A stretch of 32,000 nt of DNA from Candidatus Syntropharchaeum caldarium (GCA_001766815.1 LYOS01000001.1:120001-152000); one strand, 5' to 3'. Numbered from the stretch's first letter, positions 15,046-32,000 are shown. Made by a program: numbers and translations. Notes: generated by a model not told the origin, from the letters alone.

Positions 15046-16581
15046 ATGAAAAGGGATGGAAATTTTTACGGTACACAGATCATGATAATTGCAATCTGTG
15101 TTATGATGGTATTTACAGTTGTTACGGTCACGGCGTCTGAATGGCCCCAGTTCCAGAAGGATGAGGTGAATACGGGTGTTTGCAATGATAAGATTCTTGG
15201 AAGAAGCGTTAGCTGGAACGTGATGACGCATACGAATACATATATGGCAGCGGGAGTCAATGTGGTTCCAGTTGTGGCGAATAACAACGTATATGTGCTC
15301 GACTGCGAGGGATACATCTGGAGCTTTGACGCAGTGACAGGGAATGAAAACGGTAACTGTTCCTATAATTCCAATGCAGACTTCCAGCTCTCAACGCCAG
15401 CTTATGGAGATGATAAGATCTTCTTTGCGATGAGTCGTGGAGATGAGAAAGGGTCAGTATTCGCTGTGAATGCAAACGATGTGAGCGATGAGATATGGAA
15501 TGTGACCGTTGATTCGACACAGCAGATAAACGTACCTATAACCTATGATAGCTATGATAGCGGCAAAATATATTTCGGCACATGGAACGGAACATGGAGC
15601 ACAACGGAAGGATGTGGGAGATATTACTGCCTTAATGCTGTGAACGGCAACGAGATATGGAACTACACAACAAGCACAGAGGGAAACGGCTACTACTGGG
15701 CTGGCGCGTGCATAATCGGTGATTACATCGTATTTGGAGATGATCTTGGGAATATCACCTGTTTGAATAAGAATACAGGCGCACTGGTGGATGTGAAGAA
15801 TATCAAAGATGAGGTATCAAACGCAAAACAGATAAGGTCGTCTGTAAGCTGCAATGCAACGTACCACAACGCAACCTGCGGTAGAGTGTACTTCACGGAT
15901 GGAAACTACACGAGTAGTAGTATTCACAGTGGAAGGTTATGGGCTTACGACATCAATACGAGCACGGGGACTCTGACATACGCGTGGAACAGAGAGATTG
16001 ACTTCTCAAGGTCTACACCGGTTGTTTATAAAAATCGGGTATATGTCGGGTGCGGTGATTTCCGTGTTGCTGGTAAGCTCTACTGCATCTACGAATCCGA
16101 TGGAACAGTTGACTGGAGTTTCACGGTTCCAACACTTTCTTCAGCCTGTAAACCAGGAGTTACGGCATCTCCTGTCCTATCGATCGATGGGGATGCTACC
16201 TACATCTATTTCACGGTAAACAGTGTAAATGGAAGGCTATACTGTATTAATGAAAGCGGTAGCGAACTCTGGTACTACGAACCACCGGAATCTGACCCGA
16301 GCGGCGAATACATCTCACAGGGCGCAGCGATCTACAAGAACACCGCAGGCGAGATGCGAGTATTCTTCGGAAACGACGCAGGGAAGCTTTACGCCCTCGA
16401 TGAAGGAATGTGCGGGGATGTGGATGGCGATGGTTTTGTGACAGGATTCGATTCCTACCTGGTGTACACACGAGATCTTGAGATCAGTCAATGGGCAGCG
16501 GATGTTGACTGTGATGGATTCATAACAGGTTTTGATTCCTACTTAGTATACACAAGAAATCTGAACTGCTGTGATGATTAG
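15046..16581 (+). CDS. secreted PQQ-like beta-propeller protein with C-terminal dockerin (gene A)
   Basis: N-terminal hydrophobic signal/anchor (IMIIAICVMMVFTVVTVTAS). Repeated propeller motifs follow (W.QF..D..NTG; NNNVYVLDCEGYIWSFDAVTG; GKIYFGT..; GRYYCLNAVNGNEIW; GKLYCIYESDGTVDW; GRLYCINESGSELW; GKLYALD). The dockerin at about 16405-16578 has two near-identical Ca-loop repeats, GDVDGDGFVTGFDSYLVYTRDL and ADVDCDGFITGFDSYLVYTRNL. The gene ends in TAG. Confidence 0.9.
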   Translation: MKRDGNFYGTQIMIIAICVMMVFTVVTVTASEWPQFQKDEVNTGVCNDKILGRSVSWNVMTHTNTYMAAGVNVVPVVANNNVYVLDCEGYIWSFDAVTGNENGNCSYNSNADFQLSTPAYGDDKIFFAMSRGDEKGSVFAVNANDVSDEIWNVTVDSTQQINVPITYDSYDSGKIYFGTWNGTWSTTEGCGRYYCLNAVNGNEIWNYTTSTEGNGYYWAGACIIGDYIVFGDDLGNITCLNKNTGALVDVKNIKDEVSNAKQIRSSVSCNATYHNATCGRVYFTDGNYTSSSIHSGRLWAYDINTSTGTLTYAWNREIDFSRSTPVVYKNRVYVGCGDFRVAGKLYCIYESDGTVDWSFTVPTLSSACKPGVTASPVLSIDGDATYIYFTVNSVNGRLYCINESGSELWYYEPPESDPSGEYISQGAAIYKNTAGEMRVFFGNDAGKLYALDEGMCGDVDGDGFVTGFDSYLVYTRDLEISQWAADVDCDGFITGFDSYLVYTRNLNCCDD

Positions 16582-16815
16582 GAGGCACAGATAGCGATGA
16601 AAGGTTGTTACAGGTTCGGAGGAGGCGGTTTTCCGTCCTCCATCTCCATTATTTCCAGTTATTTCAAACCATGGTTTAAAAGATCCGAGATGCACAGGGA
16701 TCTGCCCATGCGGGGTACTGTGGTGAGTGCATCAAAAAGAAGTGGTGCGGTGCAACACACTGGTACTCCCGTAAAGTGCTCAGGTGCTGCACCCACAACC
16801 ACAGGAGGAAAATAG

Positions 16816-19467
16816 ATGAATATAGGAAAGGAATATATAAATAGGTTTGGAAAAGGGATTGGCGCATCGCTTCTTGCGATGATAATGGTGCTTTCGATAG
16901 CAGTGGTGTTGAGCACACCTGCGAGCGCATTGCCTGTGCCGCCAGGAACCAACGGTATATACTGGCTGGAACCTGCTTCAAGCAGTGCACCGTACGGCGA
17001 CAGTGTAACACTCGATGTGTGGGTTAATTCCAGCATACCGCTCTTTGGAGGTACGTTTACAATAGAAACAGACCCTGACACGTGCGGCGAATTCGTGGTT
17101 GGAACATTCGATGACAACACAACTTATTTCGATATGGGGCACGCCATCATCGACGAGGAGAAGCATCGGCTGTTTATAGGCTACCAGACAGTAGGGTTTG
17201 TTGAAAGACCGCCCGGTCCTTACCACCTCGGCAGCTTCGAGATAAAATGCAACTCAACAAGTGCCTGCACAACAGACGTTGAGTACATACCAGATCTGCC
17301 AAACACCTACATAACAAACACATCGGGTAACTATGATACCGTGGAGCAGGACGCCACATTCGAATGCGAGGGACCACCAGTAATAACCGACTGGATGCAG
17401 TTCCACTACGACATTGCAAACACCGGGAACTCACCATCCAATGCACCAGACGACAACACCACGAAGTGGATCAGTGATAACATCGGCGCAGCGGCATCCT
17501 CACAGGCGATGATCGTCGGAGATAAGGTCTTTGTCTATGCTAATGATACGGTATATGCATTGAACAAGGCATCAGGTGCTGTGCTCTGGCAAACCTCAAT
17601 CCCGGGAGATACGCAAGGCTGGGGTTCATGGGCATCACCGGCATACGATGACGATATGCTCTTTGTAAGTGCAGGCTACAACCTAACGAAGCTAAACGCA
17701 ACGACTGGAGCAAAGTTACAGGAGATTGCATTCCCTGATGGTGGATACTCGTGTAACGGTGGTCCAACGGTTGCTGACGGCATGGTCTTTGCAGGCAGTG
17801 GTGGCGGTAATTACTATGCATTCGATGAGAACGATCTGAACACAGTTCTCTGGACATACGCAACTCCATCAGGAGGTAGTGCAGTTTCAACACCTGCTGT
17901 TGCTGACGGAAAGGTCGTGGTCGGCGAGATGACATGGGGTGGAGCATCTGTCTTATCCTGTATTGACGAGGCTACAGGATCCTTACTATGGTCAACCTCA
18001 CTCGTTGGGGATGTCGGCGGTTCTGCCGCAATCGATGCTATAAACAACAGGGTCTATGTTGCAACCTTCGTGGATTATATTGGCGATACCGGTAAGCTGT
18101 ATGCACTCGCTTTCGACACAGGAGCCATACAGTGGAGCGCGGACATAACCTATAGCGACTCAACACCAGCGATCTCAGGAGACTACATTTACGTCTCCGG
18201 GAGTGTTAATGCACCGGGTGTGACTTACTGCTTCAATCAGGCAGGCGCGCTTCAGTGGGATGTTCCCTGCGGAAGCTGGACAATGTCACCAGCGGTTGCA
18301 GACGGTAAGCTCTTCACTGGTAAGGTTGGAACGAACTGGGGAGCAGTAGATGGGATCTGTGTGTTTGATGCCCTGACAGGAGCACCAGTATGGTCAGACG
18401 ATGACGATGCAGGCTCATCACCCTCTGTTGCAGAGTCTGTTGGTATGGCAGTGAGTATCGGTAACGACGGTAAGGTCTATGCGTTCGGAACGCCTGAATC
18501 GGTTGATATATACGTTGAGCCAGAACTCACCAATATCGCACCGCAGGATCAGTTCGATGTTAACATCGTGATCGATCCGCACGGTATACCGATCTATGGT
18601 GTTGAGTACTACCTGACGTATGATACATCGATCGTCAGAGCTGAGTCCCAGGTGAAGGGACCGTTCCTTGGTCCGGCAAGTGATACGATCGTTGTTGTGA
18701 ACGAGATCGACCGCACGAACGGTATCGTCTCGTATGCCGAGACAAGAAAAGTACAGGGCGGTGTGACCGATCCAGGTGTCTCGTCTGTGATCCAGTTTAC
18801 AGCGATCGGACCTGCTGATACCTGCACAGACCTGAACCTGAGCGGTGTTATCATCGTTGATACAGGAAAGGAGCCAGTGCTATATGAGATCACGAACGGC
18901 AAAGCTTGCATAATTCTGAACAACCCACCAGAGGCAGCAGGATGCTCGAAGCACAGGATCAACAACGCACAGAAGAAGTTTGAGTGCCTTGCACAGCTCT
19001 GCTCAAATTCAACCGACGATGATGGTGACGATATCGTCTATATCAGATGGGCGTTTGGTGATGGTGAGTATGGGACAAGCGAAGGTCTTGGCGAGTGCCC
19101 GTGCAAGTTCCATTCCTACATCTCCTGGAACTGGGTGCCGTTCGGTGATCCAAACGGTGACTACGAGCCGTTCATCGTGAACCTGACGGTAACTGACAAC
19201 GGAGACCCACAGCTTGAGGATACCACCTCCTTCCCGGTAACGGTCTACATGGCAGGGGATGCGAACGGTGACGGCATGGTCAACATCATTGATGCGGTCT
19301 ATGTCGGTCTCAACTGGGGTGATACCTGCTCAGGTACAGGCTGCTGCGAGTACCTGTGGGCTACTGATGAAGACGCTGATGCTGCAGACCTGAACAACGA
19401 CTGCCAGGTGAACATCCTTGATGCAGTGATTGTCGGAACGATGTGGGGACACGAAGCCTGGTATTAG
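16816..19467 (+). CDS. secreted cohesin-like / PQQ-like propeller / cohesin / PKD / dockerin protein (gene B)
   Basis: SD GGAGGA 7 nt upstream. Signal peptide ..SLLAMIMVLSIAVVLSTPASA. A tentative N-terminal cohesin-like beta-sandwich. Propeller repeats (DKVFVYANDTVYALNKASGAVLW, GMVFAGSGGGNYYAFD, GKVVVGE..LSCIDEATGSLLW, NRVYVAT..GKLYALAFDTGAIQW, GKLFTG, GKVYAFG). Cohesin (FDVNIVIDPHGIPIYGVEYYLTYDTSIVRA). PKD (IRWAFGDGEYG...LTVTDNGDP). Dockerin (GDANGDGMVNIIDAVYVGLNWG ... ADLNNDCQVNILDAVIVGTMWG). The gene ends in TAG. Confidence 0.9.
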   Translation: MNIGKEYINRFGKGIGASLLAMIMVLSIAVVLSTPASALPVPPGTNGIYWLEPASSSAPYGDSVTLDVWVNSSIPLFGGTFTIETDPDTCGEFVVGTFDDNTTYFDMGHAIIDEEKHRLFIGYQTVGFVERPPGPYHLGSFEIKCNSTSACTTDVEYIPDLPNTYITNTSGNYDTVEQDATFECEGPPVITDWMQFHYDIANTGNSPSNAPDDNTTKWISDNIGAAASSQAMIVGDKVFVYANDTVYALNKASGAVLWQTSIPGDTQGWGSWASPAYDDDMLFVSAGYNLTKLNATTGAKLQEIAFPDGGYSCNGGPTVADGMVFAGSGGGNYYAFDENDLNTVLWTYATPSGGSAVSTPAVADGKVVVGEMTWGGASVLSCIDEATGSLLWSTSLVGDVGGSAAIDAINNRVYVATFVDYIGDTGKLYALAFDTGAIQWSADITYSDSTPAISGDYIYVSGSVNAPGVTYCFNQAGALQWDVPCGSWTMSPAVADGKLFTGKVGTNWGAVDGICVFDALTGAPVWSDDDDAGSSPSVAESVGMAVSIGNDGKVYAFGTPESVDIYVEPELTNIAPQDQFDVNIVIDPHGIPIYGVEYYLTYDTSIVRAESQVKGPFLGPASDTIVVVNEIDRTNGIVSYAETRKVQGGVTDPGVSSVIQFTAIGPADTCTDLNLSGVIIVDTGKEPVLYEITNGKACIILNNPPEAAGCSKHRINNAQKKFECLAQLCSNSTDDDGDDIVYIRWAFGDGEYGTSEGLGECPCKFHSYISWNWVPFGDPNGDYEPFIVNLTVTDNGDPQLEDTTSFPVTVYMAGDANGDGMVNIIDAVYVGLNWGDTCSGTGCCEYLWATDEDADAADLNNDCQVNILDAVIVGTMWGHEAWY

Positions 19468-19600: not shown

Positions 19601-19945
19601 CTATCTCTTATCATTGGACCAGAGAGCAGCATCAAATCTCATCGCTAATGCGAGGTATTCAGTATCATCATGGTCTGGACTTACCTTATTTGCTTCCTGC
19701 AGGAATCGTTCAAATTCCTGTCCTGGAATAATATCTATTCTTTCCTTTAATAAATTTACAAACTCGTTGAAATCATCCTCAGAAAGCGAAGATTTTGCTA
19801 TGATTTCATCCTTATGCTCTTCTAACTCTATAAATAAGAATTCAGGAGCAATTAGTTGGAGCCTTTCGGAAAACATCAGATCACATGTCTTGCTTCTGGC
19901 GATTATCGCTAAAAACAGGACGTTGGCATCCACGACCAGCAACAT
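19601..19945 (-). CDS. vapC: PIN-domain ribonuclease toxin (VapC-like), possibly truncated by an in-frame TAG
   Basis: MLLVVDANVLF.. carries the first acidic residue; later come IELEEH, DHDDTEYLALA and LWSNDKR. The gene lies 9 nt downstream of the antitoxin gene. The TAG stop is followed by 19 sense codons that still look family-like (see findings). Confidence 0.8.
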   Translation of the reverse strand: MLLVVDANVLFLAIIARSKTCDLMFSERLQLIAPEFLFIELEEHKDEIIAKSSLSEDDFNEFVNLLKERIDIIPGQEFERFLQEANKVSPDHDDTEYLALAMRFDAALWSNDKR

Positions 19946-19954
19946 CTTAAGATC

Positions 19955-20200
19955 TCACTTTAACCCAGGATACAGTTCTTTGTATCGTTCGTGTAATCCC
20001 TTGTTTATTTTTCTTCCGAGTTCCAGAGCATCCTTCTCGGTTAATGCGCTCTTAGATGCCATGGACTTTAACCTGGCTAATTTTGAAGCCTGCTCACGAA
20101 TAGCATCTCTTGCCACCTTTGACCAGTCTATAAATGATGTTTTATCCATCTCCTGCTTCAAATCCTCTGGTATCACAACCTTTATCTCTGCCATTCCCAT
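19955..20200 (-). CDS. vapB: VapB-like antitoxin (small helical protein upstream of PIN toxin)
   Basis: 81 aa, MGMAEIKVVIPEDLKQEMDKTSFIDWSKVARDAIREQASKLARLK...LTEKDALELGRKI. Assignment rests on position and size immediately upstream of the PIN gene, the typical type II TA arrangement. The fold was not identified. Confidence 0.6.
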   Translation of the reverse strand: MGMAEIKVVIPEDLKQEMDKTSFIDWSKVARDAIREQASKLARLKSMASKSALTEKDALELGRKINKGLHERYKELYPGLK

Positions 20201-21408: not shown

Positions 21409-21461
21409 GAGGCTTGATGAATCGTATACTAAATTGATTAAAATGGTTGGAGGTAAGTGAA

Positions 21462-22250: not shown

Positions 22251-22256
22251 GTTAAA

Positions 22257-22946: not shown

Positions 22947-22959
22947 AGAGGTGATTGAG

Positions 22960-24846: not shown

Positions 24847-25719
24847 AATAAGAAATGGTGAAATGTGTGAGGCGATTGATAGCGGTATTTTTAATCTCGT
24901 TATTTATATTCCCGTTGGTATCTGCAGATCTCAGAAAGGATCTCACAGATAACCTCCCTCTAAGTGTAAGATCTCCTTCTGGTACTGAGACCCTGATCTG
25001 CGGTTACCTGTTTGAGAGGGGATCTACAGGCAGTGTAAGGATCACAAACCTCAACACCAGTTTAAGCTGGGATGCAAGGCTACTTGAGTCAGAGCCAGAC
25101 TTCTACTACCTCTATCTCGATGAAATTGAGCTTAAAGCAGGAGATATGCTCAGGCTCAACGCAACCTCAGGTGATGAATCGGTCGTATTAATTCATACCG
25201 TAAACCAGAGTGAGATCGATGAGCATCTGGTGTGGCTTGATATCATCGAGGATCTTGCGATAACAGAGATCACAATACCAAACAGAATTACAAAAGATAT
25301 CAACACCACTATCCACGCCGTAATTGAGAATATTGGACTGATACCAGTCGTTGTACCCTTCAATATTACATTCAGCGTTGATGGAGAACTCATAACTACT
25401 ACCTCTTTTACAGAAGTTCCTTTAAACGCCAGTGAGAACTTTACCGTAGAATTTTATTGGACTCCTCTGGAATCCGGGATACACAACATCACAATCACTG
25501 TGGATCCGAATCATGAAATTATATCAGAGACGAATGAATCGAATAATCGAATGAAGAAAAGCGTGTCTGTTGCTGAACTACCTTCGTTTTATGTGCCACT
25601 GGACTTTCCCACGATTCAAGATGCGGTGGATAATGTAACAATTAACGGAACCACGATTTATGTCGCAAGCGGCACGTATAACGAGAATATAATGATTCAA
25701 AAGCAGATCACACTTCTGG
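24601..25719 (+). repeat. copy 1 of an exact 1119-bp direct repeat (period 6281 bp)
   Basis: Compared line by line with 30882-32000: no mismatch was seen. It covers the dockerin of gene F, its TAG stop, the 8-nt spacer and the first 288 codons of gene G. Confidence 0.95.
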
Positions 25720-28700
25720 GAGCGGATATGAATGATACAATCATAGACGGAGGTGGGAACGATACATTAAGGCTTTTTGCGAATAATTGTGTCATCAGAG
25801 GTTTTTCGATAATTAATGGGAGCACAGGTATAAAGATCGAATCCAATGGCAATAAAATCTTTGAAAATTGGATTTATAACAACTCCTGCGGCGTAAATAT
25901 CACCGGATTAAATAATACCGTTTATCATAATAATCTGAATAATGTTCAGAACGGATTTGATACCGGTAATAGTTCGTGGGACGATGGAAGGGAAGGAAAC
26001 TACTGGAGCGATTGTACCGGCGATGATTTCGATCTCAATGGGATTGTAGACACGCCTTATGAATGCGGGTGGGTAACGGATCGATATCCTTTAGTTTCTC
26101 CATATGTACTGCACAGAGACCCGGCAATCGCGTATCTCACTGTCCCCACATCTATTTATGTGAATGAAACGAATACTATCTTTGTGGGCATTGCCAATTA
26201 CGGCACTTCAGAAGTGGCAAGCAATCTCTCACTCAAACTCGGTGGCACTATTCTGAACATGACGATTTCTCTACCATATAAGAGCATAAACGCTGTTTAT
26301 TTCTGCGTGACTCCGAACCAGATGGGGACAATAAACCTAACAGCGGAGATAGAGGCATGCAATGAAGATTCAAATAGAGCAAACAACCGGATGAGCGTGA
26401 ATGTTACGGTAATTCCTTCGCCTTTTAAGCGCCTTTACAATTTTGATAACGAAACAACTATGGCGGAATATTATAAATATCAACTTCCTGAAAGCAGAAC
26501 GAATGCTCTGGATTACTTAGCAATGCAGCAGAATTCTGACGGCGGCATCGGTCAGGGTGGCTATTCGACAGATCTGGCTATTATAGCGGTATCATCTGCT
26601 GGAGAGAATCCGCAGGAGTTTGCGAGACTGAATTCGTCGCTTACAGATTATTTAAAAGCGCATCCGCCTCAGCATGACCTGACTTTAATATCTCGCTATG
26701 TGCTTGCGATTATCGCTTCTGGTGAGAATCCGCGTGATTTTGGTGGTAAAAACTATCTTGCGATGATTCAATCATTCTTCGATGGAGAACAGTTTGGAAT
26801 TGAGAAGAATATCGTGGATGATGCGTGGGCTGTGCTTGCACTTACCGGAGCAGGATATGGCAATGACACAGAAATTATGCGAACTGAAAGGAATTATATT
26901 CTCAGGTGTCAGAATGAGAGTGATGGCGGATGGCCGTATTTTGAGAATGGAACGAGCTCAATCGATGTAACTGCGATAGCATTAGAAGCTCTGGTTGCTT
27001 CTGGTATAGCTGTGGATAATAGTTCGATACAGAATGGCACGAAATATTTGGAAAAAAATCTTGTGAAGAATCAATGGGAAGAGGGGATGGGGCAGACAGA
27101 CCCACTGCCAGAATCCAATCTGAAAAATTATGCTCATTCAGTCCAGGCAATCGTTGCTGTTGGAGGGAATCCGATAGATGGAAGCTGGGATTATTCGCAG
27201 AGTGCAGCTACATACTACGGGATTGAAAACCCATACAACCCGCTACTTCTGCTCTTGGGACTCGAAGAGAAGTCGGGCGATTTTGAAGGTGGATTCGCGT
27301 TCACATTTAAAGATTCTTATCCCGAACCTAAATGGACATCAATGGCACTCCCCTCGCTGTTCGCAAAGCCATATCCTTCGATGTGCACGTATAGCCGGGT
27401 GCTATCAGACATAAAGCCCATTCATATAGGGACACGGGCTTGCTACACCAATGTTACAAATATTATCAATGCAACAATCAAGAACAACGGCGGGATATTC
27501 AACGTGAGTCTTCTTGTGGATGGTGCCGAGGTTGACCGCGCGAGAATTGTGGAGACGAATTCAACTGCATTATCGCGGGTGGAATTCAGATGGCTGCCAG
27601 AGAAAGAAGGGGAATATAACCTCACCGTTGTGGCAGATTCTGAGAATTCAATAGAAGAGAATAATGAGAGCAATAACTGCATCGGCCGCGTGGTCACTGT
27701 GACGAAGCCAGACCTGCACCCCAGGACAGAACTGCCAGCATTCTATGTCAATGTGACAAACAGAATAGAAACAGAAGTTTTAGGATACGGCGAGGGATTC
27801 AACGTATCGCTTCTTATAAATGGAAGCGTTGTAGATAAAGCCGAGAATATCAGCTCTTATGGCTTTAATAAAACAACGTTATACTGGAAGCCAAACCAAA
27901 CGGGTAACTACACTCTTAGACTCATCGCTGATTCGGAAAACGATGTATTTGAATCCGATGAGAAGAATAACACCATAGAAGAGAATGTCAGTGTAATACT
28001 GCCCGACCTATATCCTCAGAATATAAGCACTATGATACTGTACACCGATACCGAGAACATCATAGATGTCAGCATCAACGGCTCAGCAGAAGGATTTAAC
28101 GCGACTTTATTTGCAAACGGAACGATTGCAGATAAAATCGAGAACATTTCATCTTATAACGTGGCGAATATCAGTTTTTCGTGGAACCCCCTGCTGGCAG
28201 GTGTTTACAACCTCACAGTGATGGTAGATGCTGATGATGAGATAGAAGAGACGAACGAAACGAACAACAATCTGAGTCGTATTGTAACCGTAGAGAATCG
28301 AGAAGCGCCATACATAAAACTACTCGCTCCGATAGGTGGTGAATGCTGGAGCGGTGTGCAGACGATAAAGTGGAGTGCAACCGACCCGAACGGCGATGAA
28401 CTAATAATAAACATCAGCTACAGCCCGGATGCAGGAATAATGTGGCATCCAATTGCAAGCAATCTTGAGAACACAGGCTATTATAATTGGAGCACCGAGT
28501 ACATGCTGGATGGATATGATTATAAGGTAAAAGTAGAAGCATTTGATGGGAATTCTACCTCAGTGGATATCTCAAAAGATGTATTCACAATCTACAACAG
28601 GAGATCGTATGAGGGGGCACCAAGCTTCCATTATAATGCGGGTTTCTCACTCTCGGAAGCGCCGAATACGAATAAAACTGCGTGGATAACCGAAGATATT

Positions 28701-31127
28701 GGTGCATGCCCTTCCACTTCTCTTATTGTTGCCGATGGTAAGGTCTTTGTCTACTGCTATGACAGTGTGAAGGCACTGGACGAATTAAATGGCAGCACAG
28801 ACCTAAATGGCAGCACAAAACCCATCTGGAGCACATCCATAGATAAGGCTGTTTATGGCTCGTGGGCGACTGCGGCATACTACGACGGATCGGTATTCAT
28901 AGCTTCAGGAAATCATGTTTACCGAATTAGTGCTAAAGATGGAAAGATAGAATGGAGGTTCCAATTCCCTGATGGGGGGTGCAGTGTGAATAGTGGTCCG
29001 TGTGTTGCATACGGAAATGTATATGTGGGTTCATGGAACGGGGGGCACTATTACTGCTTGAATGACTCAACTGGAGAAATAAAATGGCAATTTCCTCCAA
29101 AAGGTGAAAAGAAACTGGATCACGCACAATCAACACCAGCAGCACATAACGGAATGGTCTTCTTCGGTGATTTTACAGGCGGACCGAAATCAAAGGTTTT
29201 TGCCGTTGATGGACTTACAGGTGAAGAGATATGGAATCAAACAGTTTCGTGGAGTGTCTGCGGCTCCGTTACGATTGCGCACAATAAGGTATACCTCATG
29301 ACATATAATTTCTATGGTTCAGGAGAGTTTTATGCACTCAATGAAAATAACGGAAGCATTGTCTGGCAACATACGATTGCAAGGTCCGATTCTACACCGG
29401 CGCATGCGTATGGAAACATCTATGTCTGTGGTGGATGCCCAGGTTATGAGCGGTGTAGAACATACTGTCTGAATGATGCAGACGGAGGAAACGAGACCTG
29501 GAATGTGCCTGATTGGGGGATATGGACATATTCACCGATGGTTGCAGATAAGAAAGTATTTATTGGTAAAGCAGAGGGACCGGGGATGGACAGTATGCTC
29601 CCAGCAGGGATGTCTGCTCGTAATGCCTTTACCGGAGAAGAGATATGGCGTTCAGATCTCGGCGGTGGTTCACCCGCGATTGTGCATGGGAGGGTATATA
29701 CCGTGGGGGGTGTTAATGCAACGGGCAGAGTTATCTGTTTCGGCTCTACAAACCAACCAGACCTCGAACTGAGTAATCTCACTACGGTTCCAAAGTCAGA
29801 TATCTATGTCGGTCAAAATGTTTCAATCAATGTGACACTCAGAAATATTGGCTCTGGTAACGCTTCTGCATTTAACGTTTCTTTACGAGTTAATGGTGAG
29901 ATAGAAGCGGAAAAAAGAATTGATGATGGACTTAATGTAAACGTTAGCATGCCTGTGAATTTCTCGTGGACTCCAGTAGAAGCTGGGGAGTATCTTATCA
30001 TCGTTGAAGCGGATTCGGATGATGAGATTGCTGAAACCGACGAGCTTAACAATACGTTGAGTGCGACCGTGGACGTGGTTGAAGCAGCAGGACCAAGTGT
30101 TACGGTTGATAGCCGTGATGTATCCCCTGGTGAGACGTTCACGATCAGTATAACCGTCGATCCGCAGGGTGAGGAGATTTACGGAGCACAGTATGACCTT
30201 TACTTTGATCCAGCAATCTTGCAGGTTGTGAGCCAGACCGCGGGCGACTTCCTGACACAGGACGGTGCAAGCTCAATCGAAGTCGTGAACACGATCAACA
30301 ACACCCTTGGAAAGCTTGAGTACGGTGAGACACGGATGGGAGTGGAGAATGGCGTGACTCGGGCAGGCGTTCTCGCCACGATCGAATTCGAGGCTGTTGG
30401 AACCGGGTCAACCGGTCTCACGCTATCAAACGTGCTCTTAAGCGATCCAAGTGCACATGAGATTGGAGGAGTCGTGCTGAACGATGGAGCGGTCAACGTA
30501 GCAGGGACGCCACCGCCGCCACCACCAGGTGGTGCGATCGTAACGATCCCTGACGTTGGAGCAACAGGAACGCTCACAGTCCCGATCAGAATCGAGAACG
30601 TGACAGACGCAGGCGCAATCCATCTGACACTCACCTATGACCCTCGTGTTGTCATCGTATCAACTGCGTGCTGCAACTCAGACTTTGACACACTCTTTGC
30701 AAACATCGAGGATGCAGCAAGAGGATCTATTACCATCATCGCATACCAGACCCAAAACCCAGGTCTGAACGGCAATGTGCTCGTTGCAGACGTGACTTTC
30801 ATGGCACTCGGCCCCATCGGATCATCGAGCACCCTTAACCTAGAGGTCACAACACTCACCGACGCAACACCAGAGTGCAACCCGATCCCCTACTCAGTCA
30901 GCAATGGAAGCTTCACGGTATTCTTAAACGGCGACGTGAACGGTGATGGCAGGGTCGATGCTGCAGACTGCATGTACCTTGCAAAACACCTGCTCGGGGT
31001 CTCAGGTTTTGAGACGATCGTTGAGGTTGCAGCAGATGTCAATGGTAACGGCGAGATCGAGGCATCAGACTGCATGTACCTTGCAAAGCATCTTGCAGGG
31101 ATTGACGGATTTGAGGAGTTGAAGTAG
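24855..31127 (+). CDS. giant (2090 aa) secreted multidomain protein: CARDB x7, NosD-like beta-helix, prenyltransferase-like alpha/alpha toroid, Ig-like, PQQ-like propeller, two cohesins, dockerin (gene G)
   Basis: Signal peptide MVKCVRRLIAVFLISLFIFPLVSA. Approximate modules: CARDB units recognised by (E/D)-x-N-E-x-NN endings (ETNESNN, SNRANN, ENNESNN, SDEKNN, ETNETNN, ETDELNN); beta-helix 25580-26110 (TIYVASGTYNENI..LLGA...IIDGGG...IRGFSI.NGSTGIKIE.SNGNKIFENWIYNNSCGVNITG); toroid 26500-27370 (LDYLAMQQNSDGGIG, ILRCQNESDGGWPYF, DVTAIALEALVASG); Ig-like 28305-28600 (VQTIKWSATDPNGDELIINISYSPDAG..W); propeller 28618-29757 (GKVFVYCYDSVKALDELNG, GSVFIASGNHVYRISAKDGKIEW, GNVYVGSWNGGHYYCLNDSTGEIKW, GMVFFGDF...VFAVDGLTGEEIW, NKVYLMT...FYALNENNGSIVW, GRVYTVGG); CARDB 29757-30080; cohesin 30081-30500; poly-Pro 30510-30527; type II cohesin 30530-30925; dockerin 30930-31115. 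Confidence 0.9.
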   Translation: MVKCVRRLIAVFLISLFIFPLVSADLRKDLTDNLPLSVRSPSGTETLICGYLFERGSTGSVRITNLNTSLSWDARLLESEPDFYYLYLDEIELKAGDMLRLNATSGDESVVLIHTVNQSEIDEHLVWLDIIEDLAITEITIPNRITKDINTTIHAVIENIGLIPVVVPFNITFSVDGELITTTSFTEVPLNASENFTVEFYWTPLESGIHNITITVDPNHEIISETNESNNRMKKSVSVAELPSFYVPLDFPTIQDAVDNVTINGTTIYVASGTYNENIMIQKQITLLGADMNDTIIDGGGNDTLRLFANNCVIRGFSIINGSTGIKIESNGNKIFENWIYNNSCGVNITGLNNTVYHNNLNNVQNGFDTGNSSWDDGREGNYWSDCTGDDFDLNGIVDTPYECGWVTDRYPLVSPYVLHRDPAIAYLTVPTSIYVNETNTIFVGIANYGTSEVASNLSLKLGGTILNMTISLPYKSINAVYFCVTPNQMGTINLTAEIEACNEDSNRANNRMSVNVTVIPSPFKRLYNFDNETTMAEYYKYQLPESRTNALDYLAMQQNSDGGIGQGGYSTDLAIIAVSSAGENPQEFARLNSSLTDYLKAHPPQHDLTLISRYVLAIIASGENPRDFGGKNYLAMIQSFFDGEQFGIEKNIVDDAWAVLALTGAGYGNDTEIMRTERNYILRCQNESDGGWPYFENGTSSIDVTAIALEALVASGIAVDNSSIQNGTKYLEKNLVKNQWEEGMGQTDPLPESNLKNYAHSVQAIVAVGGNPIDGSWDYSQSAATYYGIENPYNPLLLLLGLEEKSGDFEGGFAFTFKDSYPEPKWTSMALPSLFAKPYPSMCTYSRVLSDIKPIHIGTRACYTNVTNIINATIKNNGGIFNVSLLVDGAEVDRARIVETNSTALSRVEFRWLPEKEGEYNLTVVADSENSIEENNESNNCIGRVVTVTKPDLHPRTELPAFYVNVTNRIETEVLGYGEGFNVSLLINGSVVDKAENISSYGFNKTTLYWKPNQTGNYTLRLIADSENDVFESDEKNNTIEENVSVILPDLYPQNISTMILYTDTENIIDVSINGSAEGFNATLFANGTIADKIENISSYNVANISFSWNPLLAGVYNLTVMVDADDEIEETNETNNNLSRIVTVENREAPYIKLLAPIGGECWSGVQTIKWSATDPNGDELIINISYSPDAGIMWHPIASNLENTGYYNWSTEYMLDGYDYKVKVEAFDGNSTSVDISKDVFTIYNRRSYEGAPSFHYNAGFSLSEAPNTNKTAWITEDIGACPSTSLIVADGKVFVYCYDSVKALDELNGSTDLNGSTKPIWSTSIDKAVYGSWATAAYYDGSVFIASGNHVYRISAKDGKIEWRFQFPDGGCSVNSGPCVAYGNVYVGSWNGGHYYCLNDSTGEIKWQFPPKGEKKLDHAQSTPAAHNGMVFFGDFTGGPKSKVFAVDGLTGEEIWNQTVSWSVCGSVTIAHNKVYLMTYNFYGSGEFYALNENNGSIVWQHTIARSDSTPAHAYGNIYVCGGCPGYERCRTYCLNDADGGNETWNVPDWGIWTYSPMVADKKVFIGKAEGPGMDSMLPAGMSARNAFTGEEIWRSDLGGGSPAIVHGRVYTVGGVNATGRVICFGSTNQPDLELSNLTTVPKSDIYVGQNVSINVTLRNIGSGNASAFNVSLRVNGEIEAEKRIDDGLNVNVSMPVNFSWTPVEAGEYLIIVEADSDDEIAETDELNNTLSATVDVVEAAGPSVTVDSRDVSPGETFTISITVDPQGEEIYGAQYDLYFDPAILQVVSQTAGDFLTQDGASSIEVVNTINNTLGKLEYGETRMGVENGVTRAGVLATIEFEAVGTGSTGLTLSNVLLSDPSAHEIGGVVLNDGAVNVAGTPPPPPPGGAIVTIPDVGATGTLTVPIRIENVTDAGAIHLTLTYDPRVVIVSTACCNSDFDTLFANIEDAARGSITIIAYQTQNPGLNGNVLVADVTFMALGPIGSSSTLNLEVTTLTDATPECNPIPYSVSNGSFTVFLNGDVNGDGRVDAADCMYLAKHLLGVSGFETIVEVAADVNGNGEIEASDCMYLAKHLAGIDGFEELK

Positions 31128-32000
31128 AATAAGAAATGGTGAAATGTGTGAGGCGATTGATAGCGGTATTTTTAATCTCGTTATTTATATTCCCGTTGGT
31201 ATCTGCAGATCTCAGAAAGGATCTCACAGATAACCTCCCTCTAAGTGTAAGATCTCCTTCTGGTACTGAGACCCTGATCTGCGGTTACCTGTTTGAGAGG
31301 GGATCTACAGGCAGTGTAAGGATCACAAACCTCAACACCAGTTTAAGCTGGGATGCAAGGCTACTTGAGTCAGAGCCAGACTTCTACTACCTCTATCTCG
31401 ATGAAATTGAGCTTAAAGCAGGAGATATGCTCAGGCTCAACGCAACCTCAGGTGATGAATCGGTCGTATTAATTCATACCGTAAACCAGAGTGAGATCGA
31501 TGAGCATCTGGTGTGGCTTGATATCATCGAGGATCTTGCGATAACAGAGATCACAATACCAAACAGAATTACAAAAGATATCAACACCACTATCCACGCC
31601 GTAATTGAGAATATTGGACTGATACCAGTCGTTGTACCCTTCAATATTACATTCAGCGTTGATGGAGAACTCATAACTACTACCTCTTTTACAGAAGTTC
31701 CTTTAAACGCCAGTGAGAACTTTACCGTAGAATTTTATTGGACTCCTCTGGAATCCGGGATACACAACATCACAATCACTGTGGATCCGAATCATGAAAT
31801 TATATCAGAGACGAATGAATCGAATAATCGAATGAAGAAAAGCGTGTCTGTTGCTGAACTACCTTCGTTTTATGTGCCACTGGACTTTCCCACGATTCAA
31901 GATGCGGTGGATAATGTAACAATTAACGGAACCACGATTTATGTCGCAAGCGGCACGTATAACGAGAATATAATGATTCAAAAGCAGATCACACTTCTGG
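30882..32000 (+). repeat. copy 2 of the exact direct repeat (truncated by the window end)
   Basis: Identical to 24601-25719. It covers the dockerin of gene G, the spacer and the start of gene H. The antisense track ORFs 30890..31075, 31039..31227 and 31474..31674 duplicate 24609..24794, 24758..24946 and 25193..25393 exactly. Confidence 0.95.
31136..32000 (+). CDS. 5' part of a second giant-protein gene, identical so far to gene G (gene H; runs off right edge)
   Basis: 31136-32000 is base-for-base identical to 24855-25719, and the frame is open to the window end (288 codons). It is absent from the ORF track because no stop is reached. Confidence 0.85.
   Translation, partial: MVKCVRRLIAVFLISLFIFPLVSADLRKDLTDNLPLSVRSPSGTETLICGYLFERGSTGSVRITNLNTSLSWDARLLESEPDFYYLYLDEIELKAGDMLRLNATSGDESVVLIHTVNQSEIDEHLVWLDIIEDLAITEITIPNRITKDINTTIHAVIENIGLIPVVVPFNITFSVDGELITTTSFTEVPLNASENFTVEFYWTPLESGIHNITITVDPNHEIISETNESNNRMKKSVSVAELPSFYVPLDFPTIQDAVDNVTINGTTIYVASGTYNENIMIQKQITLL

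What the first reader, a model, noticed from the sequence alone, without database searches (positions are those of the whole stretch)
15046..32000. Archaeal cellulosome-like cohesin-dockerin assembly locus with non-enzymatic cargo
Eight consecutive plus-strand genes (A-H) all encode signal-peptide proteins. Together they carry roughly nine to ten cohesin-like modules and six visible dockerins (A, B, C, E, F, G), with an identical seventh implied for H if it is a full copy of G. Gene A is dockerin-only cargo, a PQQ-like propeller. Gene D is cohesin-only with a membrane anchor. B, C, E, F and G carry both cohesin and dockerin, so they can act as adaptors or polymerise. In bacteria this logic builds cellulosomes, but here I see no glycoside hydrolase, CBM, protease or heme-binding (CxxCH) module. 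The cargo is three PQQ-like beta-propellers, PKD and CARDB adhesion-type domains, a NosD-like beta-helix and a prenyltransferase-like toroid. Cohesin and dockerin modules are known to occur in archaeal genomes (for example Archaeoglobus), but their assemblies are functionally uncharacterised. A compact operon-like locus with an explicit anchor, adaptors and cargo is a good candidate for an undescribed extracellular or S-layer-attached multiprotein system, perhaps serving adhesion, aggregate or consortium matrix formation, or substrate capture.
Basis: partly seen in the sequence, partly recalled or inferred. Interest (0 to 1): 0.85.

Follow-up and report, generated by a model that had tools for sequence, protein, structure and literature searches.

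The report
Archaeal cohesin–dockerin surface-protein gene cluster
A butane/propane-oxidising archaeon (Candidatus Syntrophoarchaeum caldarius) carries an operon-like cluster of secreted proteins with cellulosome-type plug-and-socket modules; the kind is already known from methane-oxidising archaea, but this copy was swapped with an unrelated archaeon that has the same bacterial partner.

Summary
The domain calls hold. Genes A–G encode seven close-knit cohesins, two of a second cohesin type, one unresolved cohesin candidate (B N-terminus) and six dockerins in four classes. D carries a PGF-CTERM-like anchor.

Two claims fail:
- The genes are not consecutive. A minus-strand PIN/VapB-like toxin–antitoxin pair lies between B and C.
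- H is not a full copy of G. It matches G for 1,722 residues, then ends in a transmembrane anchor with no cohesin or dockerin.

The window is Ca. Syntrophoarchaeum caldarius. GenBank already labels E a cohesin protein. Cohesin/dockerin abundance in ANME archaea and their sulfate-reducing partners is published, with adhesion proposed as the role. So this is a new member of a known kind.

What I add:
- The cluster belongs to a large, strictly co-oriented family (78 metagenome loci).
- Its core is 80–94% identical in protein, and 87–91% in DNA including intergenic sequence, to Ca. Ethanoperedens thermophilum. PurL is at most 64% identical outside the genus, so this is horizontal transfer.
- The Ethanoperedens homologues are transcribed.
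- G is a chimera of H's cargo and F's cohesin–dockerin cassette.
- A's cysteine-framed dockerin probably docks on B's N-terminal domain, by gene adjacency and co-variation.

"Non-enzymatic cargo" remains unproven.

The parts
15046..16581 (+). Gene A (OFV68495.1, 511 aa): signal-peptide-like N-terminus, BamB/PQQ_2-type beta-propeller, and a C-terminal cysteine-framed dockerin (residues 451-511, nt 16396-16578). Cargo only.
   Evidence: PQQ_2 64.8 bits. Dockerin_1 21.3 bits, below the 22.9 cut-off. A profile of A-type dockerins hits solved dockerins at E 2e-14 to 1e-6. Accession.
16666..16735 (+). Conserved promoter-like or leader element upstream of B. It has a TATA-like TTTAAAA, then the inverted repeat AGATCC-N11-GGATCT, then a second conserved block GGGGTACYGTGGTRAGTGCATCAA.
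   Evidence: The 30-nt core is exact in L002, L009 and L053, each upstream of the equivalent gene. None is expected by chance in the window. The stem shows a compensatory change (AGATTC/GAATCT) in E50 and L053.
16816..19467 (+). Gene B (OFV68497.1, 883 aa): signal peptide; N-terminal all-beta 'Bn' domain (residues 39-195, nt 16930-17400; candidate receptor for A's dockerin); PQQ_2 propeller; coh1 cohesin (residues 568-707, nt 18517-18936); PKD-like domain; dockerin (residues 810-883, nt 19243-19464).
   Evidence: Pfam scan. The cassette aligns with C.
19601..19945 (-). PIN_2 toxin gene, truncated by a premature stop relative to the E50 orthologue (114 vs 152 aa).
   Evidence: PF10130 91.8 bits. 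83% identical to the E50 orthologue. Truncation shown.
19955..20200 (-). VapB/RHH-like antitoxin gene (81 aa).
   Evidence: NCBIfam VapB 25.6 bits, below cut-off. The E50 orthologue carries RHH_12 and is 94% identical.
20300..21334 (+). Gene C (344 aa): signal peptide, coh1 cohesin (nt 20399-20830), PKD domain, B/C-type dockerin.
   Evidence: Cohesin 30.4, PKD_4 41.1 and Dockerin_1 24.8 bits. 89% identical to E50 FHEFKHOI_00207.
21447..22250 (+). Gene D (267 aa): signal peptide, coh1 cohesin (nt 21537-21980), Thr/Pro-rich linker, PGF-CTERM-like anchor. This is the dockerin-less anchor.
   Evidence: Cohesin 50.2 bits; PGF-CTERM 17.6 vs 18.8. The tail matches the C-terminus of an ArtA-dependent S-layer glycoprotein at E 5e-4. 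C-terminal hydrophobic segment.
22257..22946 (+). Gene E (OFV68501.1, 229 aa): signal peptide, coh1 cohesin (nt 22338-22751), and an atypical dockerin whose first Ca loop has an insertion.
   Evidence: Cohesin 47.3 bits; Dockerin_1 19.2 bits, below cut-off. Hits PDB dockerin 2y3n_B at E 0.0034. GenBank name contains 'cohesin region'.
22927..24846 (+). Gene F (OFV68502.1, 639 aa): scaffoldin-like. Order is coh1 (nt 23062-23463), CARDB, coh1 (23812-24231), coh2 (24283-24642), F/G-type dockerin (24637-24843).
   Evidence: Cohesin 122.4 bits in 3 stretches; CARDB 65.6; Dockerin_1 53.2. 80% identical to E50 FHEFKHOI_00210.
24855..31127 (+). Gene G (OFV68503.1, 2090 aa): a chimera. Residues 1-1722 are H-type cargo: 'Gnterm' beta module, CARDB repeats, NosD-like beta-helix, alpha/alpha toroid (nt 26427-27434), an Ig-like domain and a PQQ_2 propeller. 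From about nt 30021 it carries an F-type cassette: coh1 (30105-30515), coh2 (30564-30923), dockerin (30918-31124).
   Evidence: Domain scans. Toroid model and Foldseek. Junction and mosaic identity.
31136..32000 (+). Gene H (OFV68504.1, 1966 aa; only 288 codons lie in the window). It has the same cargo as G but is anchored by its own C-terminal transmembrane segment. No cohesin or dockerin.
   Evidence: The visible part plus 255 nt upstream is 100% identical in DNA to G. Full sequence. Adjacent accession number.

Best explanation
This is a horizontally exchanged, operon-like cluster that builds a cell-surface protein network by cohesin-dockerin docking in the syntrophic alkane oxidiser Ca. Syntrophoarchaeum caldarius.

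Proposed mechanism (every binding step is inferred, none is shown):
1. All products are secreted.
2. D is held at the membrane by a PGF-CTERM-type anchor and offers one cohesin. H is held by its own transmembrane helix.
3. B, C, E, F and G each carry cohesin(s) plus a dockerin from one of four sequence classes. They can bridge or chain.
4. A, a propeller with a dockerin, is terminal cargo. It most likely plugs into the N-terminal 'Bn' domain of B, encoded by the next gene.

The cargo is propellers, CARDB and PKD repeats, a beta-helix and an alpha/alpha toroid. The most likely role is a cell-envelope or extracellular-matrix scaffold for the dense archaeon-bacterium consortia. This is the role already hypothesised for ANME cohesin/dockerin proteins.

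The modules evolve by cassette shuffling and inter-lineage transfer.
For: Shown:
- Domain content and order.
- Identity of the organism and gene products.
- Tight spacing of D through H: gaps of 6, -20, 8 and 8 nt.
- In 80 related loci, all 342 cohesin/dockerin ORFs are co-oriented. 57 of 78 metagenome loci hold at least 3. 40 of 74 complete cohesin-only ORFs end in a hydrophobic anchor.
- The same gene order, including the toxin-antitoxin pair, occurs in Ca. Ethanoperedens thermophilum E50. Protein identities are RHH 94%, C 89%, PIN 83% and F 80%. DNA identity is 87% over 2150 bp spanning intergenic sequence, and 91% for G's cassette.
- PurL from the same window is 79% identical within the genus and at most 64% identical to anything else. 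This gap supports horizontal transfer.
- The E50 homologues are transcribed at RPKM about 50-1400, in the range of thrS and aglB (PMC7175092 Table S3).
- Both organisms grow at 50 C in Guaymas Basin consortia with Ca. Desulfofervidus.

Evidence that the dockerins are functional binding modules:
- In the cysteine-framed family, helix positions 10-24 are 91% identical between the two repeats of one dockerin. They are only 20% identical between dockerins of different proteins.

Evidence for the A-to-B pairing:
- Bn domains almost always follow a gene that ends in a cysteine-framed dockerin.
- The two features co-occur in loci: 37 both, 28 neither, 9 Bn only, 6 dockerin only; Fisher p = 2e-8.
- Across 21 unique loci, r(dockerin, Bn) = 0.83, against 0.30 for the coh1 module of the same protein. 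The partial Mantel r is 0.82, p = 0.0005.
- Bn divergence tracks the dockerin's helix positions (r = 0.77) more than the interleaved Ca-loop positions (r = 0.42).

The adhesion hypothesis comes from the literature.
Against: - No binding, localisation or expression data exist for these S. caldarius proteins.
- The A and E dockerins, B's cohesin and D's PGF-CTERM are each below their Pfam cut-offs.
- Bn is not demonstrably a cohesin. hhalign probability is 3%, PDB hits are only weak (E 0.065 and 0.093), and the AF2 model has pLDDT 41.
- The dockerin-Bn co-variation could come from physical linkage, since the two segments lie about 0.2-0.7 kb apart.
- Loop positions are also more constrained than helix positions, which by itself lowers their correlation.
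- The beta-helix and toroid could be enzymes or ligand binders. The function could therefore be catalytic or nutrient capture rather than adhesion.
- Sharing the locus with E50 could reflect a shared habitat rather than a shared partner.
Confidence: 0.6

Rival explanations
1. The cluster is a cellulosome-like enzyme complex after all. The NosD/pectinesterase-like beta-helix and the alpha/alpha toroid of G and H would be glycan-active domains that remodel extracellular polysaccharide or the consortium matrix. The cohesin-dockerin modules would concentrate them at the surface.
For: - The beta-helix matches NosD (54.9 bits) and pectinesterase (22.5 bits), both below cut-off.
- Homologues carry Beta_helix and NosD Pfam hits.
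- Foldseek hits for the toroid model include GH76, GH105 and unsaturated glucuronyl hydrolase at TM about 0.5-0.56.
- Alkane-oxidising consortia produce abundant sugars (PMC13597711).
Against: - No glycoside hydrolase, polysaccharide lyase or CBM family reaches any threshold.
- The best toroid matches are terpene-cyclase-like proteins, transcobalamin and prenyltransferase, at E-values no worse than those of the GH hits.
- No catalytic motif was identified.
- The model has only moderate confidence (pLDDT 64).
- Most cluster genes (A-F) carry only binding-type domains.
Confidence: 0.15
2. The cluster is a surface capture platform for nutrients or cofactors. The propellers and the transcobalamin-like toroid would bind small molecules such as corrinoids or metals and hold them near the cell. 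This would parallel the dockerin-tagged substrate-binding proteins reported in ANME.
For: - Transcobalamin and intrinsic factor are among the top structural matches, at E 2.7e-4 and TM 0.4-0.5.
- Chadwick et al. report dockerin-bearing NikA/OppA and TroA binding proteins in ANME.
- The E50 neighbourhood has a well-expressed CARDB+DUF4430 protein.
Against: - Cobalamin_bind reaches only E 0.19.
- The window contains no DUF4430 domain, no ABC transporter and no substrate-binding protein.
- The fold match cannot distinguish transcobalamin from terpene cyclases.
Confidence: 0.08
3. The cohesin-like and dockerin-like modules here no longer pair. They would serve only as Ig-like spacers and Ca-binding stabilisers in ordinary surface or S-layer-associated proteins, and the clustering would reflect tandem duplication.
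For: - Several calls are sub-threshold (A, E, B).
- E's first Ca loop is disrupted by an insertion.
- Repeated duplication and shuffling is evident.
Against: - The two halves of each dockerin are kept near-identical, while dockerins of different proteins diverge to 20% identity in the helix. This pattern is expected for a maintained, specificity-determining interface.
- The division into anchor-only, cargo-only and adaptor proteins is conserved across 80 loci.
- Archaeal cohesin-dockerin pairs have been shown to bind (references 167 and 168 cited in PMC9012536).
Confidence: 0.1
4. The G/H arrangement (a 5.2-kb perfect repeat and a chimeric G) is an assembly artefact of the metagenome-assembled genome. 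For example, two strain variants could have been laid out in tandem. This affects only that part of the finding.
For: - G and H are 100% identical for 1722 codons plus 255 nt upstream. That is unusual for a short-read assembly.
- No G-like cargo-plus-cassette protein was found elsewhere. All homologues (P0206, P0207, P0209) are H-like with a transmembrane tail.
Against: - Both proteins are in the deposited record with consecutive accessions.
- At the junction, H and F share only a few identical bases. G = H up to ...GATTCGGAT, and G = F exactly only from nt 30018. A k-mer-driven false join is therefore unlikely. This is inferred, because H's DNA beyond nt 32000 was not visible.
Confidence: 0.2

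Closest known systems
Non-cellulosomal cohesin/dockerin proteins of ANME archaea (Timmers et al. 2017, PMC5244752; Chadwick et al. 2022, PMC9012536)
   Same: - The host is a syntrophic, alkane-activating archaeon.
- It has many secreted cohesin and dockerin proteins.
- It has scaffoldin-like proteins with one dockerin and several cohesins (F has 3).
- There are no cellulases.
- The proposed role is adhesion or matrix formation.
- Direct homologues occur in ANME-1, ANME-2c and Syntropharchaeales MAGs.
   Different: - The host is Ca. Syntrophoarchaeum, a butane/propane oxidiser, which those surveys did not cover for this trait.
- Those papers list domains per protein. They do not describe a conserved co-oriented cluster, the embedded toxin-antitoxin pair, the Bn/cysteine-framed-dockerin gene pair, or transfer between archaeal lineages.
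- None of the dockerin-tagged substrate-binding proteins they highlight is present here.
Bacterial cellulosome (Clostridium/Acetivibrio thermocellus type)
   Same: The logic is the same: cohesin-dockerin plug and socket, an anchoring protein, multi-cohesin scaffoldin or adaptor proteins, dockerin-tagged cargo, internally duplicated dockerins consistent with a dual binding mode, and gene clustering of the scaffoldins.
   Different: - No glycoside hydrolase or CBM is present.
- The anchor is PGF-CTERM-like or a transmembrane helix, not SLH or sortase.
- Most proteins carry both cohesin and dockerin.
- The cargo is propellers, CARDB, PKD, a beta-helix and a toroid.
- The host is an archaeon.
Cohesin/dockerin 'adhesins' of syntrophic sulfate reducers, including HotSeep-1 / Ca. 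Desulfofervidus (Murali et al. 2023, PMC10553843)
   Same: - The module types and the consortium context are the same.
- Inter-clade transfer of cohesin/dockerin modules is noted there.
- High expression is reported in some partnerships.
- Both S. caldarius and E50 partner with Ca. Desulfofervidus.
   Different: - Those proteins are bacterial.
- Whether they pair with the archaeal modules is unknown and was not testable here.
- One protein labelled Thermodesulfobacteriota (P0024) has a near-identical F/G-type dockerin. It sits on a 2.6-kb contig, so binning is unreliable.
Archaeoglobus fulgidus cohesin and dockerin proteins (Bayer 1999; Haimovitz 2008, as cited in PMC9012536)
   Same: They are archaeal, non-cellulosomal cohesin and dockerin modules with experimentally shown binding.
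   Different: There are only a few isolated genes in A. fulgidus. No multi-gene cluster, anchor or multi-cohesin scaffoldin has been reported there.

Membership tests
Cohesin domain (Pfam PF00963) | Sequence matches the family HMM above the gathering score (24.1 bits) | tested here: met
   C 30.4, D 50.2, E 47.3, F 122.4 (3 stretches), G 83.9 (2 stretches). B scores 22.4, just below, but its cassette is 45% identical to C's.
Cohesin domain (Pfam PF00963) | B residues 39-195 ('Bn') is a cohesin | tested here: inconclusive
   An iterative HMM search converges on cohesins. However, hhalign probability is 3%, the PDB profile gives only two weak hits, both cohesins, at E 0.065 and 0.093, and the AF2 single-sequence model has pLDDT 41.
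Cohesin domain (Pfam PF00963) | Binds a dockerin in a Ca-dependent manner | not testable with these tools
   No multimer prediction or experiment was available.
Dockerin type I (Pfam PF00404) | HMM match above the gathering score (22.9 bits) | tested here: met
   Met for B 25.0, C 24.8, F 53.2 and G 52.3. Not met for A (21.3) or E (19.2). The A-type family profile hits solved dockerins (4fl4, 4uyp, 1ohz, 2ccl and others) at E 8e-9 to 1e-6. E hits 2y3n_B at E 0.0034.
Dockerin type I (Pfam PF00404) | Two tandem Ca-binding loop-helix (F-hand) repeats | tested here: met
   All six show two D-x-[DN]-x-[DN]-G...D loops. E's first loop has an insertion. Repeats of the same dockerin are 73-91% identical in the helix for A-type and F/G-type dockerins.
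Cellulosome | Dockerin-bearing glycoside hydrolases or other carbohydrate-active enzymes as cargo | tested here: not met
   No GH, PL or CE family is above threshold in any of the proteins. Only a sub-threshold pectinesterase-like beta-helix and an unspecific alpha/alpha toroid are present.
Cellulosome | Substrate-targeting CBM on the scaffoldin | tested here: not met
   No CBM Pfam hit.
Cellulosome | Scaffoldin with multiple cohesins plus a cell-anchoring protein | tested here: met
   F has 3 cohesins and a dockerin. D is a cohesin with a C-terminal anchor. The anchor type is PGF-CTERM-like, which differs from SLH or sortase.
PGF-CTERM / archaeosortase A substrates | C-terminal PGF motif, hydrophobic helix and basic tail, preceded by a Thr/Pro-rich linker | tested here: met
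   D ends ...TTTPNTPGFGLVIAGIGIMMIAYAFKRRI. It matches the C-terminus of an ArtA-dependent S-layer glycoprotein at E 5e-4.
PGF-CTERM / archaeosortase A substrates | HMM above the cut-off, and an archaeosortase encoded in the genome | tested here: inconclusive
   PF18204 scores 17.6 against 18.8. E50 has an exosortase-family gene.
ANME-type non-cellulosomal cohesin/dockerin repertoire | Secreted cohesin/dockerin proteins, with scaffoldin-like members, in a syntrophic alkane-oxidising archaeon and with homologues in ANME genomes | tested here: met
   Homologues are named Methanophagales, Ca. Methanospirare, Ca. Methanogaster, Syntropharchaeales and GB50.
PQQ-dependent dehydrogenase | Match to the PQQ alcohol dehydrogenase family model at its cut-off | tested here: not met
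   TIGR03075 scores 43.6 bits against a cut-off of 480. The BamB models are also far below their cut-offs. Only the generic PQQ_2/BamB-like propeller is supported.
Type II toxin-antitoxin (VapBC-like: PIN + RHH/VapB) | Adjacent small antitoxin and PIN toxin genes on one strand | tested here: met
   PIN_2 scores 91.8 bits. The antitoxin matches VapB at 25.6 bits, below its cut-off of 60. The E50 orthologue is annotated RHH_12. The window's PIN carries a premature stop.

The most novel reading that the evidence does not exclude
The cluster would be a mobile 'surface code' exchanged among syntrophic alkane-oxidising archaea that share a habitat and partner (S. caldarius and E. thermophilum, both with Ca. 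Desulfofervidus). Its hypervariable but internally symmetric cysteine-framed dockerins would pair with a previously unrecognised, cysteine-bearing receptor domain (Bn) that standard cohesin models do not detect. This would be a new cohesin-dockerin-like pair type. Its rapid co-diversification would set which proteins, and perhaps which cells, can be wired into a consortium matrix.
Probability: 0.2. Interest if true: 0.75.

Novelty: new member of a known kind. Interest (0 to 1): 0.5.

Why it matters
What ANME-type cohesin/dockerin proteins do is an open question, raised in Timmers 2017, Chadwick 2022 and Murali 2023. This locus turns it into a small, testable set: 9 cohesins, 1 candidate receptor domain, 4 dockerin classes, 2 anchoring modes and one specific predicted pair (A's dockerin with B's N-terminal domain).

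The near-identity of the core cluster in two distantly related archaea that both partner with Ca. Desulfofervidus suggests that surface-assembly genes move between consortium-forming archaea. Both organisms exist as enrichment cultures, and one has a closed genome and a transcriptome. If the proteins mediate aggregate formation, they would be handles for studying or manipulating alkane-oxidising consortia.

Tried and rejected
- **Exact-protein contig look-ups.** D and P0001 are not on record, so H's DNA and the downstream genes could not be read.
- **Genome-collection scan with D.** It gave only one relative, L001. The source genome itself was not retrieved.
- **Viral-contig scan with the C/B cassette.** It returned only 22-residue PKD motif matches, so there is no evidence for a viral vector.
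- **Flanking genes as synteny markers.** The window's histidine kinase, response regulator, TFE, HD-CGI121, PurL and CARDB genes have no homologues in any related locus. The two-component system next to A is therefore not a conserved regulator of the cluster.
- **Distance-matrix comparison of the other module slots.** For g3-g7 across 10 unique loci, all correlations fell between 0.26 and 0.77 with no outlier. No further pairs could be predicted.
- **AF2 of B's N-terminal domain.** The single-sequence model was too poor to search with.
- **'Gnterm' module.** There is no Pfam family. 7 of 20 members match CarboxypepD_reg weakly. The PDB profile hits are irrelevant.
- **ORF 19515-20306 (+, 263 aa).** It has no family hit and is antisense to the toxin-antitoxin pair, so I treated it as spurious.
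- **PQQ-dependent enzyme reading of the propellers.** Rejected.
- **Heme or electron-transfer role.** Rejected, because no CxxCH motif is present.
- **Literature search for the six OFV accession numbers.** Nothing found.

Full report
**What is in the window.** Bases 1-15000 carry ordinary archaeal genes: Thi4, NrpR, ComA, prefoldin, Pcc1, LigT, PurL, TFE and HD-CGI121. There is also an IS transposase and a two-component pair.

From 15046 onward there are eight plus-strand ORFs:
- A 15046-16581
- B 16816-19467
- C 20300-21334
- D 21447-22250
- E 22257-22946
- F 22927-24846
- G 24855-31127
- H from 31136, running off the window

They are not strictly consecutive. Between B and C, on the minus strand, lie a PIN_2 gene (19601-19945, 91.8 bits) and a VapB/RHH-like gene (19955-20200). 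The 263-aa plus-strand ORF at 19515-20306 is antisense to this pair and has no family hit, so I treat it as spurious.

**Domain check.**
- Pfam Cohesin is above its gathering score in C, D, E, F (three stretches) and G (two stretches).
- Dockerin_1 is above its score in B, C, F and G. CARDB, PKD_4 and PQQ_2 are also above theirs.
- Four calls are below cut-off: B's cohesin (22.4 vs 24.1), A's dockerin (21.3 vs 22.9), E's dockerin (19.2 vs 22.9) and D's PGF-CTERM (17.6 vs 18.8).
- B's cohesin-PKD-dockerin cassette aligns with C's at 45% identity.
- A profile built from A-type dockerins hits solved dockerins at E 2e-14 to 1e-6.
- E's dockerin hits dockerin 2y3n_B at E 0.0034.
- D ends in PGF, a hydrophobic helix and KRRI, after a Thr/Pro-rich linker. 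This tail resembles the C-terminus of an ArtA-dependent S-layer glycoprotein.

My own module map gives:
- seven closely related cohesins ('coh1': B568-707, C34-177, D31-178, E28-165, F46-179, F296-435, G1751-1887);
- two cohesins of a second type ('coh2': F453-572, G1904-2023);
- six dockerins in four sequence classes, defined by loop positions 10/11: A is GF/GF; B and C are II-IL and IV-IL; E is MG/VD; F and G are AA/AS.

All eight proteins have a signal-peptide-like N-terminus by a hydrophobicity heuristic. None has a CxxCH motif. The observation therefore stands, apart from 'consecutive' and the H inference.

**H is not a copy of G.**
- The protein search with G's cargo region returned a 1966-aa S. 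caldarius protein, P0205 = OFV68504.1. Its accession directly follows G's (OFV68503.1).
- It is identical to G for 1722 residues. It then continues with an extra CARDB-like stretch, a Gly-rich linker and a transmembrane helix ending in RRRRR. It has no cohesin and no dockerin.
- Homologues from other organisms end the same way: P0206 at 88% identity, P0207, and P0209 from Ca. Methanogaster. The membrane-anchored form is therefore the standard one.
- G is a chimera. It has H-type cargo up to about nt 30021. After that it carries an F-type cassette (end of CARDB, coh1, coh2, dockerin). The junction lies inside a conserved CARDB motif.
- The cassette is a mosaic. It is 90-98% identical in DNA to the F homologue of another archaeon through most of its length, and 100% identical to the window's own F over the last 200 nt.
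- The G and H copies are 100% identical in DNA wherever H is visible, including 255 nt upstream of the start codon.
- A perfect repeat of this length in a metagenome-assembled genome needs read-level confirmation. A k-mer artefact at the junction looks unlikely, because H and F share only a few bases there. That is an inference, since H's DNA beyond nt 32000 was not visible.

**Organism and prior knowledge.**
- F is 100% identical to a protein of Candidatus Syntrophoarchaeum caldarius on a 492-kb contig. A, B, E, G and H also match that record exactly.
- GenBank already names E 'secreted protein containing Cellulosome anchoring protein, cohesin region domain'.
- Timmers et al. 2017 counted 52-80 cohesin and 44-149 dockerin domains in ANME-1 and ANME-2a genomes and proposed a role in cell contact.
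- Chadwick et al. [quoted passage not shown] It describes scaffoldin-like proteins with up to five cohesins, S-layer+dockerin proteins and dockerin-tagged substrate-binding proteins.
- Murali et al. 2023 report cohesin/dockerin adhesins in the sulfate-reducing partners, including HotSeep-1. They also report expression in partnerships and inter-clade transfers.
- The kind of system and its hypothesised role are therefore known. None of the six accession numbers appears in the searchable literature.

**The locus is shared with Ca. Ethanoperedens thermophilum by horizontal transfer.**
- F's second-best hit, at 80% identity, lies on a 1,920,273-bp contig named 'Methanoperedenaceae archaeon GB50'.
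- The gene lengths in that locus match FHEFKHOI_00204-00218 in Table S3 of Hahn et al. 2020 one for one. That paper reports a 1.92-Mb closed genome. The locus is therefore Ca. E. thermophilum E50.
- The E50 gene order is: [863-aa CARDB/DUF3344/PKD/dockerin] - PIN(-) - RHH(-) - C-like - D-like - E-like - F-like.
- Protein identities to the window are RHH 94%, C 89%, PIN 83%, F 80%, E 64% and D 47%. For B, only the C-terminal cassette matches, at 41%.
- DNA identity is 87% over an unbroken 2150 bp. This stretch covers B's dockerin, the intergenic DNA, the toxin-antitoxin pair and C. DNA identity is 91% for G's cassette.
- As a baseline, PurL from the same window is 79% identical to another Syntrophoarchaeum and at most 64% identical to anything else. 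No Methanoperedenaceae protein appears in the best 120 hits.
- Surface proteins that are more similar across classes than a core enzyme is within a genus indicate recent horizontal transfer. The direction is unresolved.
- Both organisms come from 50 C Guaymas Basin enrichments and form consortia with Ca. Desulfofervidus.

**Expression.** No data for S. caldarius were accessible. In the Ethane50 transcriptome the homologous E50 genes are transcribed:

| Gene | RPKM |
|---|---|
| B-position gene (00204) | 827-1402 |
| F homologue (00210) | 269-309 |
| D-like (00208) | 110-126 |
| C homologue (00207) | 81-105 |
| E-like (00209) | 47-59 |
| thrS (comparison) | 336-396 |
| aglB (comparison) | 207-241 |

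**A large conserved cluster family.**
- A metagenome scan with the C/B cassette returned 78 loci.
- I mapped modules with HMMs built from the window. Every one of 342 cohesin/dockerin ORFs lies on the same strand as the C-like gene.
- 57 of the 78 loci hold at least three such ORFs.
- 40 of 74 complete cohesin-only ORFs end in a hydrophobic anchor.
- Recurrent architectures are X-coh1-PKD-dockerin, coh1-dockerin, coh1-(Gnterm)-coh2-dockerin, coh2-PKD-dockerin, and runs of anchored coh1 proteins.
- Loci L004, L006, L008, L009 and L068 share the window's A-then-B order. L008 and L068 also carry a G/H-like gene downstream.
- A Methanosarcinales MAG (L001) has B'-C'-E'-D'-F' without the toxin-antitoxin pair.
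- An exhaustive search with C found 445 representatives at E <= 1e-30. About 60 of the best 150 are single full-length cassette matches at the C-terminus of proteins of 320-1500 aa. The rest are multi-PKD proteins.

**Evidence that the dockerins work as binding modules.** A's dockerin belongs to a subfamily framed by invariant cysteines (CGD...W-AADV...NCC). Within this subfamily, helix positions 10-24 are 91% identical between the two repeats of one dockerin. They are only 20% identical between dockerins of different proteins. A maintained, specificity-determining, two-fold-symmetric interface would give this pattern. It matches the dual binding mode known from cellulosomal dockerins, which I state from general knowledge.

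**A predicted pair: A docks on B.**
- B's N-terminal domain ('Bn', residues 39-195) has no Pfam match.
- Its relatives number 55 domains in the loci. None overlaps a coh1 or coh2 hit. They sit at the N-terminus of the large X-coh1-PKD-dockerin proteins.
- Wherever the upstream gene is visible, it almost always ends in a cysteine-framed dockerin.
- The two features co-occur in loci: 37 both, 28 neither, 9 Bn only, 6 dockerin only (Fisher p = 2e-8).
- Across 21 unique loci, the pairwise divergence of the upstream dockerin correlates with that of Bn at r = 0.83. It correlates at only 0.30 with the coh1 module of the same protein.
- The partial Mantel r is 0.82 (p = 0.0005). The reverse control gives 0.05.
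- Bn divergence follows the dockerin's helix positions (r = 0.77) more than the interleaved Ca-loop positions (r = 0.42).
- Caveats: the two segments are physically adjacent, so linkage contributes. Loop positions are also more constrained, which lowers their correlation.
- Whether Bn is a divergent cohesin is unresolved. Iterative searches drift into cohesins. The only two PDB hits are cohesins, at E 0.065 and 0.093. But hhalign gives 3% probability, and the AF2 single-sequence model is unusable.
- The same approach on the other module slots gave no signal.

**Cargo.**
- The propellers are generic BamB/PQQ_2-type. The PQQ-dehydrogenase model is far below its cut-off.
- G/H's beta-helix matches NosD and pectinesterase models only below cut-off.
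- The toroid domain, scanned alone, passes SQHop_cyclase_C (29.6 vs 26.1).
- An AF2 model of the toroid (6-sequence alignment, pLDDT 64, pTM 0.72) matches several alpha/alpha toroids about equally, at TM 0.4-0.56. These are single-domain squalene-hopene-cyclase-like proteins, terpene cyclases, transcobalamin, farnesyltransferase beta, alpha2-macroglobulin and GH76/GH105 enzymes.
- The fold is confirmed, but its function is open. 'Non-enzymatic' is therefore not established.
- G and H carry 76-80 N-glycosylation sequons, as expected for archaeal surface proteins.

**Most likely mechanism.**
1. All proteins are secreted.
2. D (lipid or membrane anchor) and H (transmembrane helix) are fixed to the cell.
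3. B, C, E, F and G bridge through four dockerin specificities and at least three cohesin types.
4. A docks on B.

The result would be a surface-attached protein network carrying adhesion-type domains, most plausibly part of the envelope or matrix of the archaeon-bacterium consortium. The parts list, the conservation, the transfer and the transcription of homologues are shown. Every binding step and the physiological role are inferred.

**Verdict.** I rate it a new member of a known kind, with useful new detail: cluster conservation, inter-lineage transfer, the chimeric G, and a specific testable pair.

Noticed in passing
window 19601-20200 (-): A PIN_2 / VapB-RHH-like toxin-antitoxin pair is embedded in the cluster on the opposite strand. 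The same pair sits at the same position in E50 (83% and 94% identity), and homologous pairs occur in 12 of 78 metagenome loci. Its divergence usually parallels that of the cluster (RHH 37-47% vs C-like 41-45%). L053 is the exception, with RHH at 96% but C-like at 44%. The window's PIN has a premature stop (114 vs 152 aa).
   Followed up: partly
window 16666-16735 (+); L002 3266-3295; L009 1746-1775; L053 736-765: A 30-nt element upstream of B is exactly conserved in four loci. It consists of TATA-like TTTAAAA followed by the palindrome AGATCC-N11-GGATCT. In E50 and L053 the palindrome reads AGATTC-N11-GAATCT, a compensatory change. A second conserved block is GGGGTACYGTGGTRAGTGCATCAA. This could be a promoter with an operator, or a leader hairpin. 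It is conserved even where the N-terminal half of the downstream gene differs.
   Followed up: partly
window 16396-16578 (A's dockerin); alignment A4: This is a cysteine-framed dockerin subfamily (CGD...W-AADV...NCC[CDG]) with invariant Cys at both ends and an invariant Trp. It is common in the related loci. B's N-terminal Bn domain family has four invariant Cys. Whether these form disulfides or bind metal is unknown.
   Followed up: partly
window 24930-25262 (G residues 26-136) and the start of H: The 'Gnterm' beta module has no Pfam family. It recurs 82 times in the related loci, usually between coh1 and coh2. 7 of 20 members match CarboxypepD_reg weakly. It also occurs at the N-terminus of E50's 343-aa cohesin protein and of the ANME-2c homologue P0209.
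   Followed up: partly
window 24600-25719 vs 30881-32000: There is a perfect DNA repeat (unit 6281 bp) that includes the last 255 nt of F and G, the 8-nt spacer and the 5' end of G and H. It is consistent with unequal recombination between the CARDB/dockerin cassettes, or with an assembly problem.
   Followed up: partly
window 19468-19500: Directly after B's stop codon lies a hairpin, GAGTGGTTTAAAAACCACTC, followed by a T-run. It looks like a terminator.
   Followed up: no
window 13043-14466 (-): A histidine kinase and response regulator pair is transcribed divergently from A, with a 579-nt spacer. No homologues occur next to the cluster in any related locus, so a dedicated regulatory role is unsupported.
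   Followed up: partly
window 687-2084 (+): A DDE_Tnp_1 transposase (IS element) lies 13 kb upstream. The E50 neighbourhood also has a DDE-domain gene a few genes upstream of its cluster (FHEFKHOI_00198).
   Followed up: no
window 9893-10849 (-): A separate 318-aa CARDB-containing protein lies next to PurL, outside the cluster.
   Followed up: no
L002 1-2826 (E50 FHEFKHOI_00201-00203): Upstream of the E50 cluster is a 912-aa CARDB+DUF4430 protein expressed at RPKM 536-702. From my own recollection, DUF4430 is related to cobalamin-binding proteins. This may be relevant to the transcobalamin-like fold match of the G/H toroid.
   Followed up: no
P0024: A partial protein labelled Thermodesulfobacteriota has a coh2 module and a dockerin nearly identical to those of F and G. 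It could show sharing with the bacterial partner lineage, or a mis-binned 2.6-kb archaeal contig.
   Followed up: no
window 22927-22975: F's first ATG overlaps E by 20 nt. The E50 orthologue is 13 aa shorter, and an internal Met (residue 17, MKVLTVF...) gives a more typical signal peptide. F's true start is therefore uncertain.
   Followed up: no
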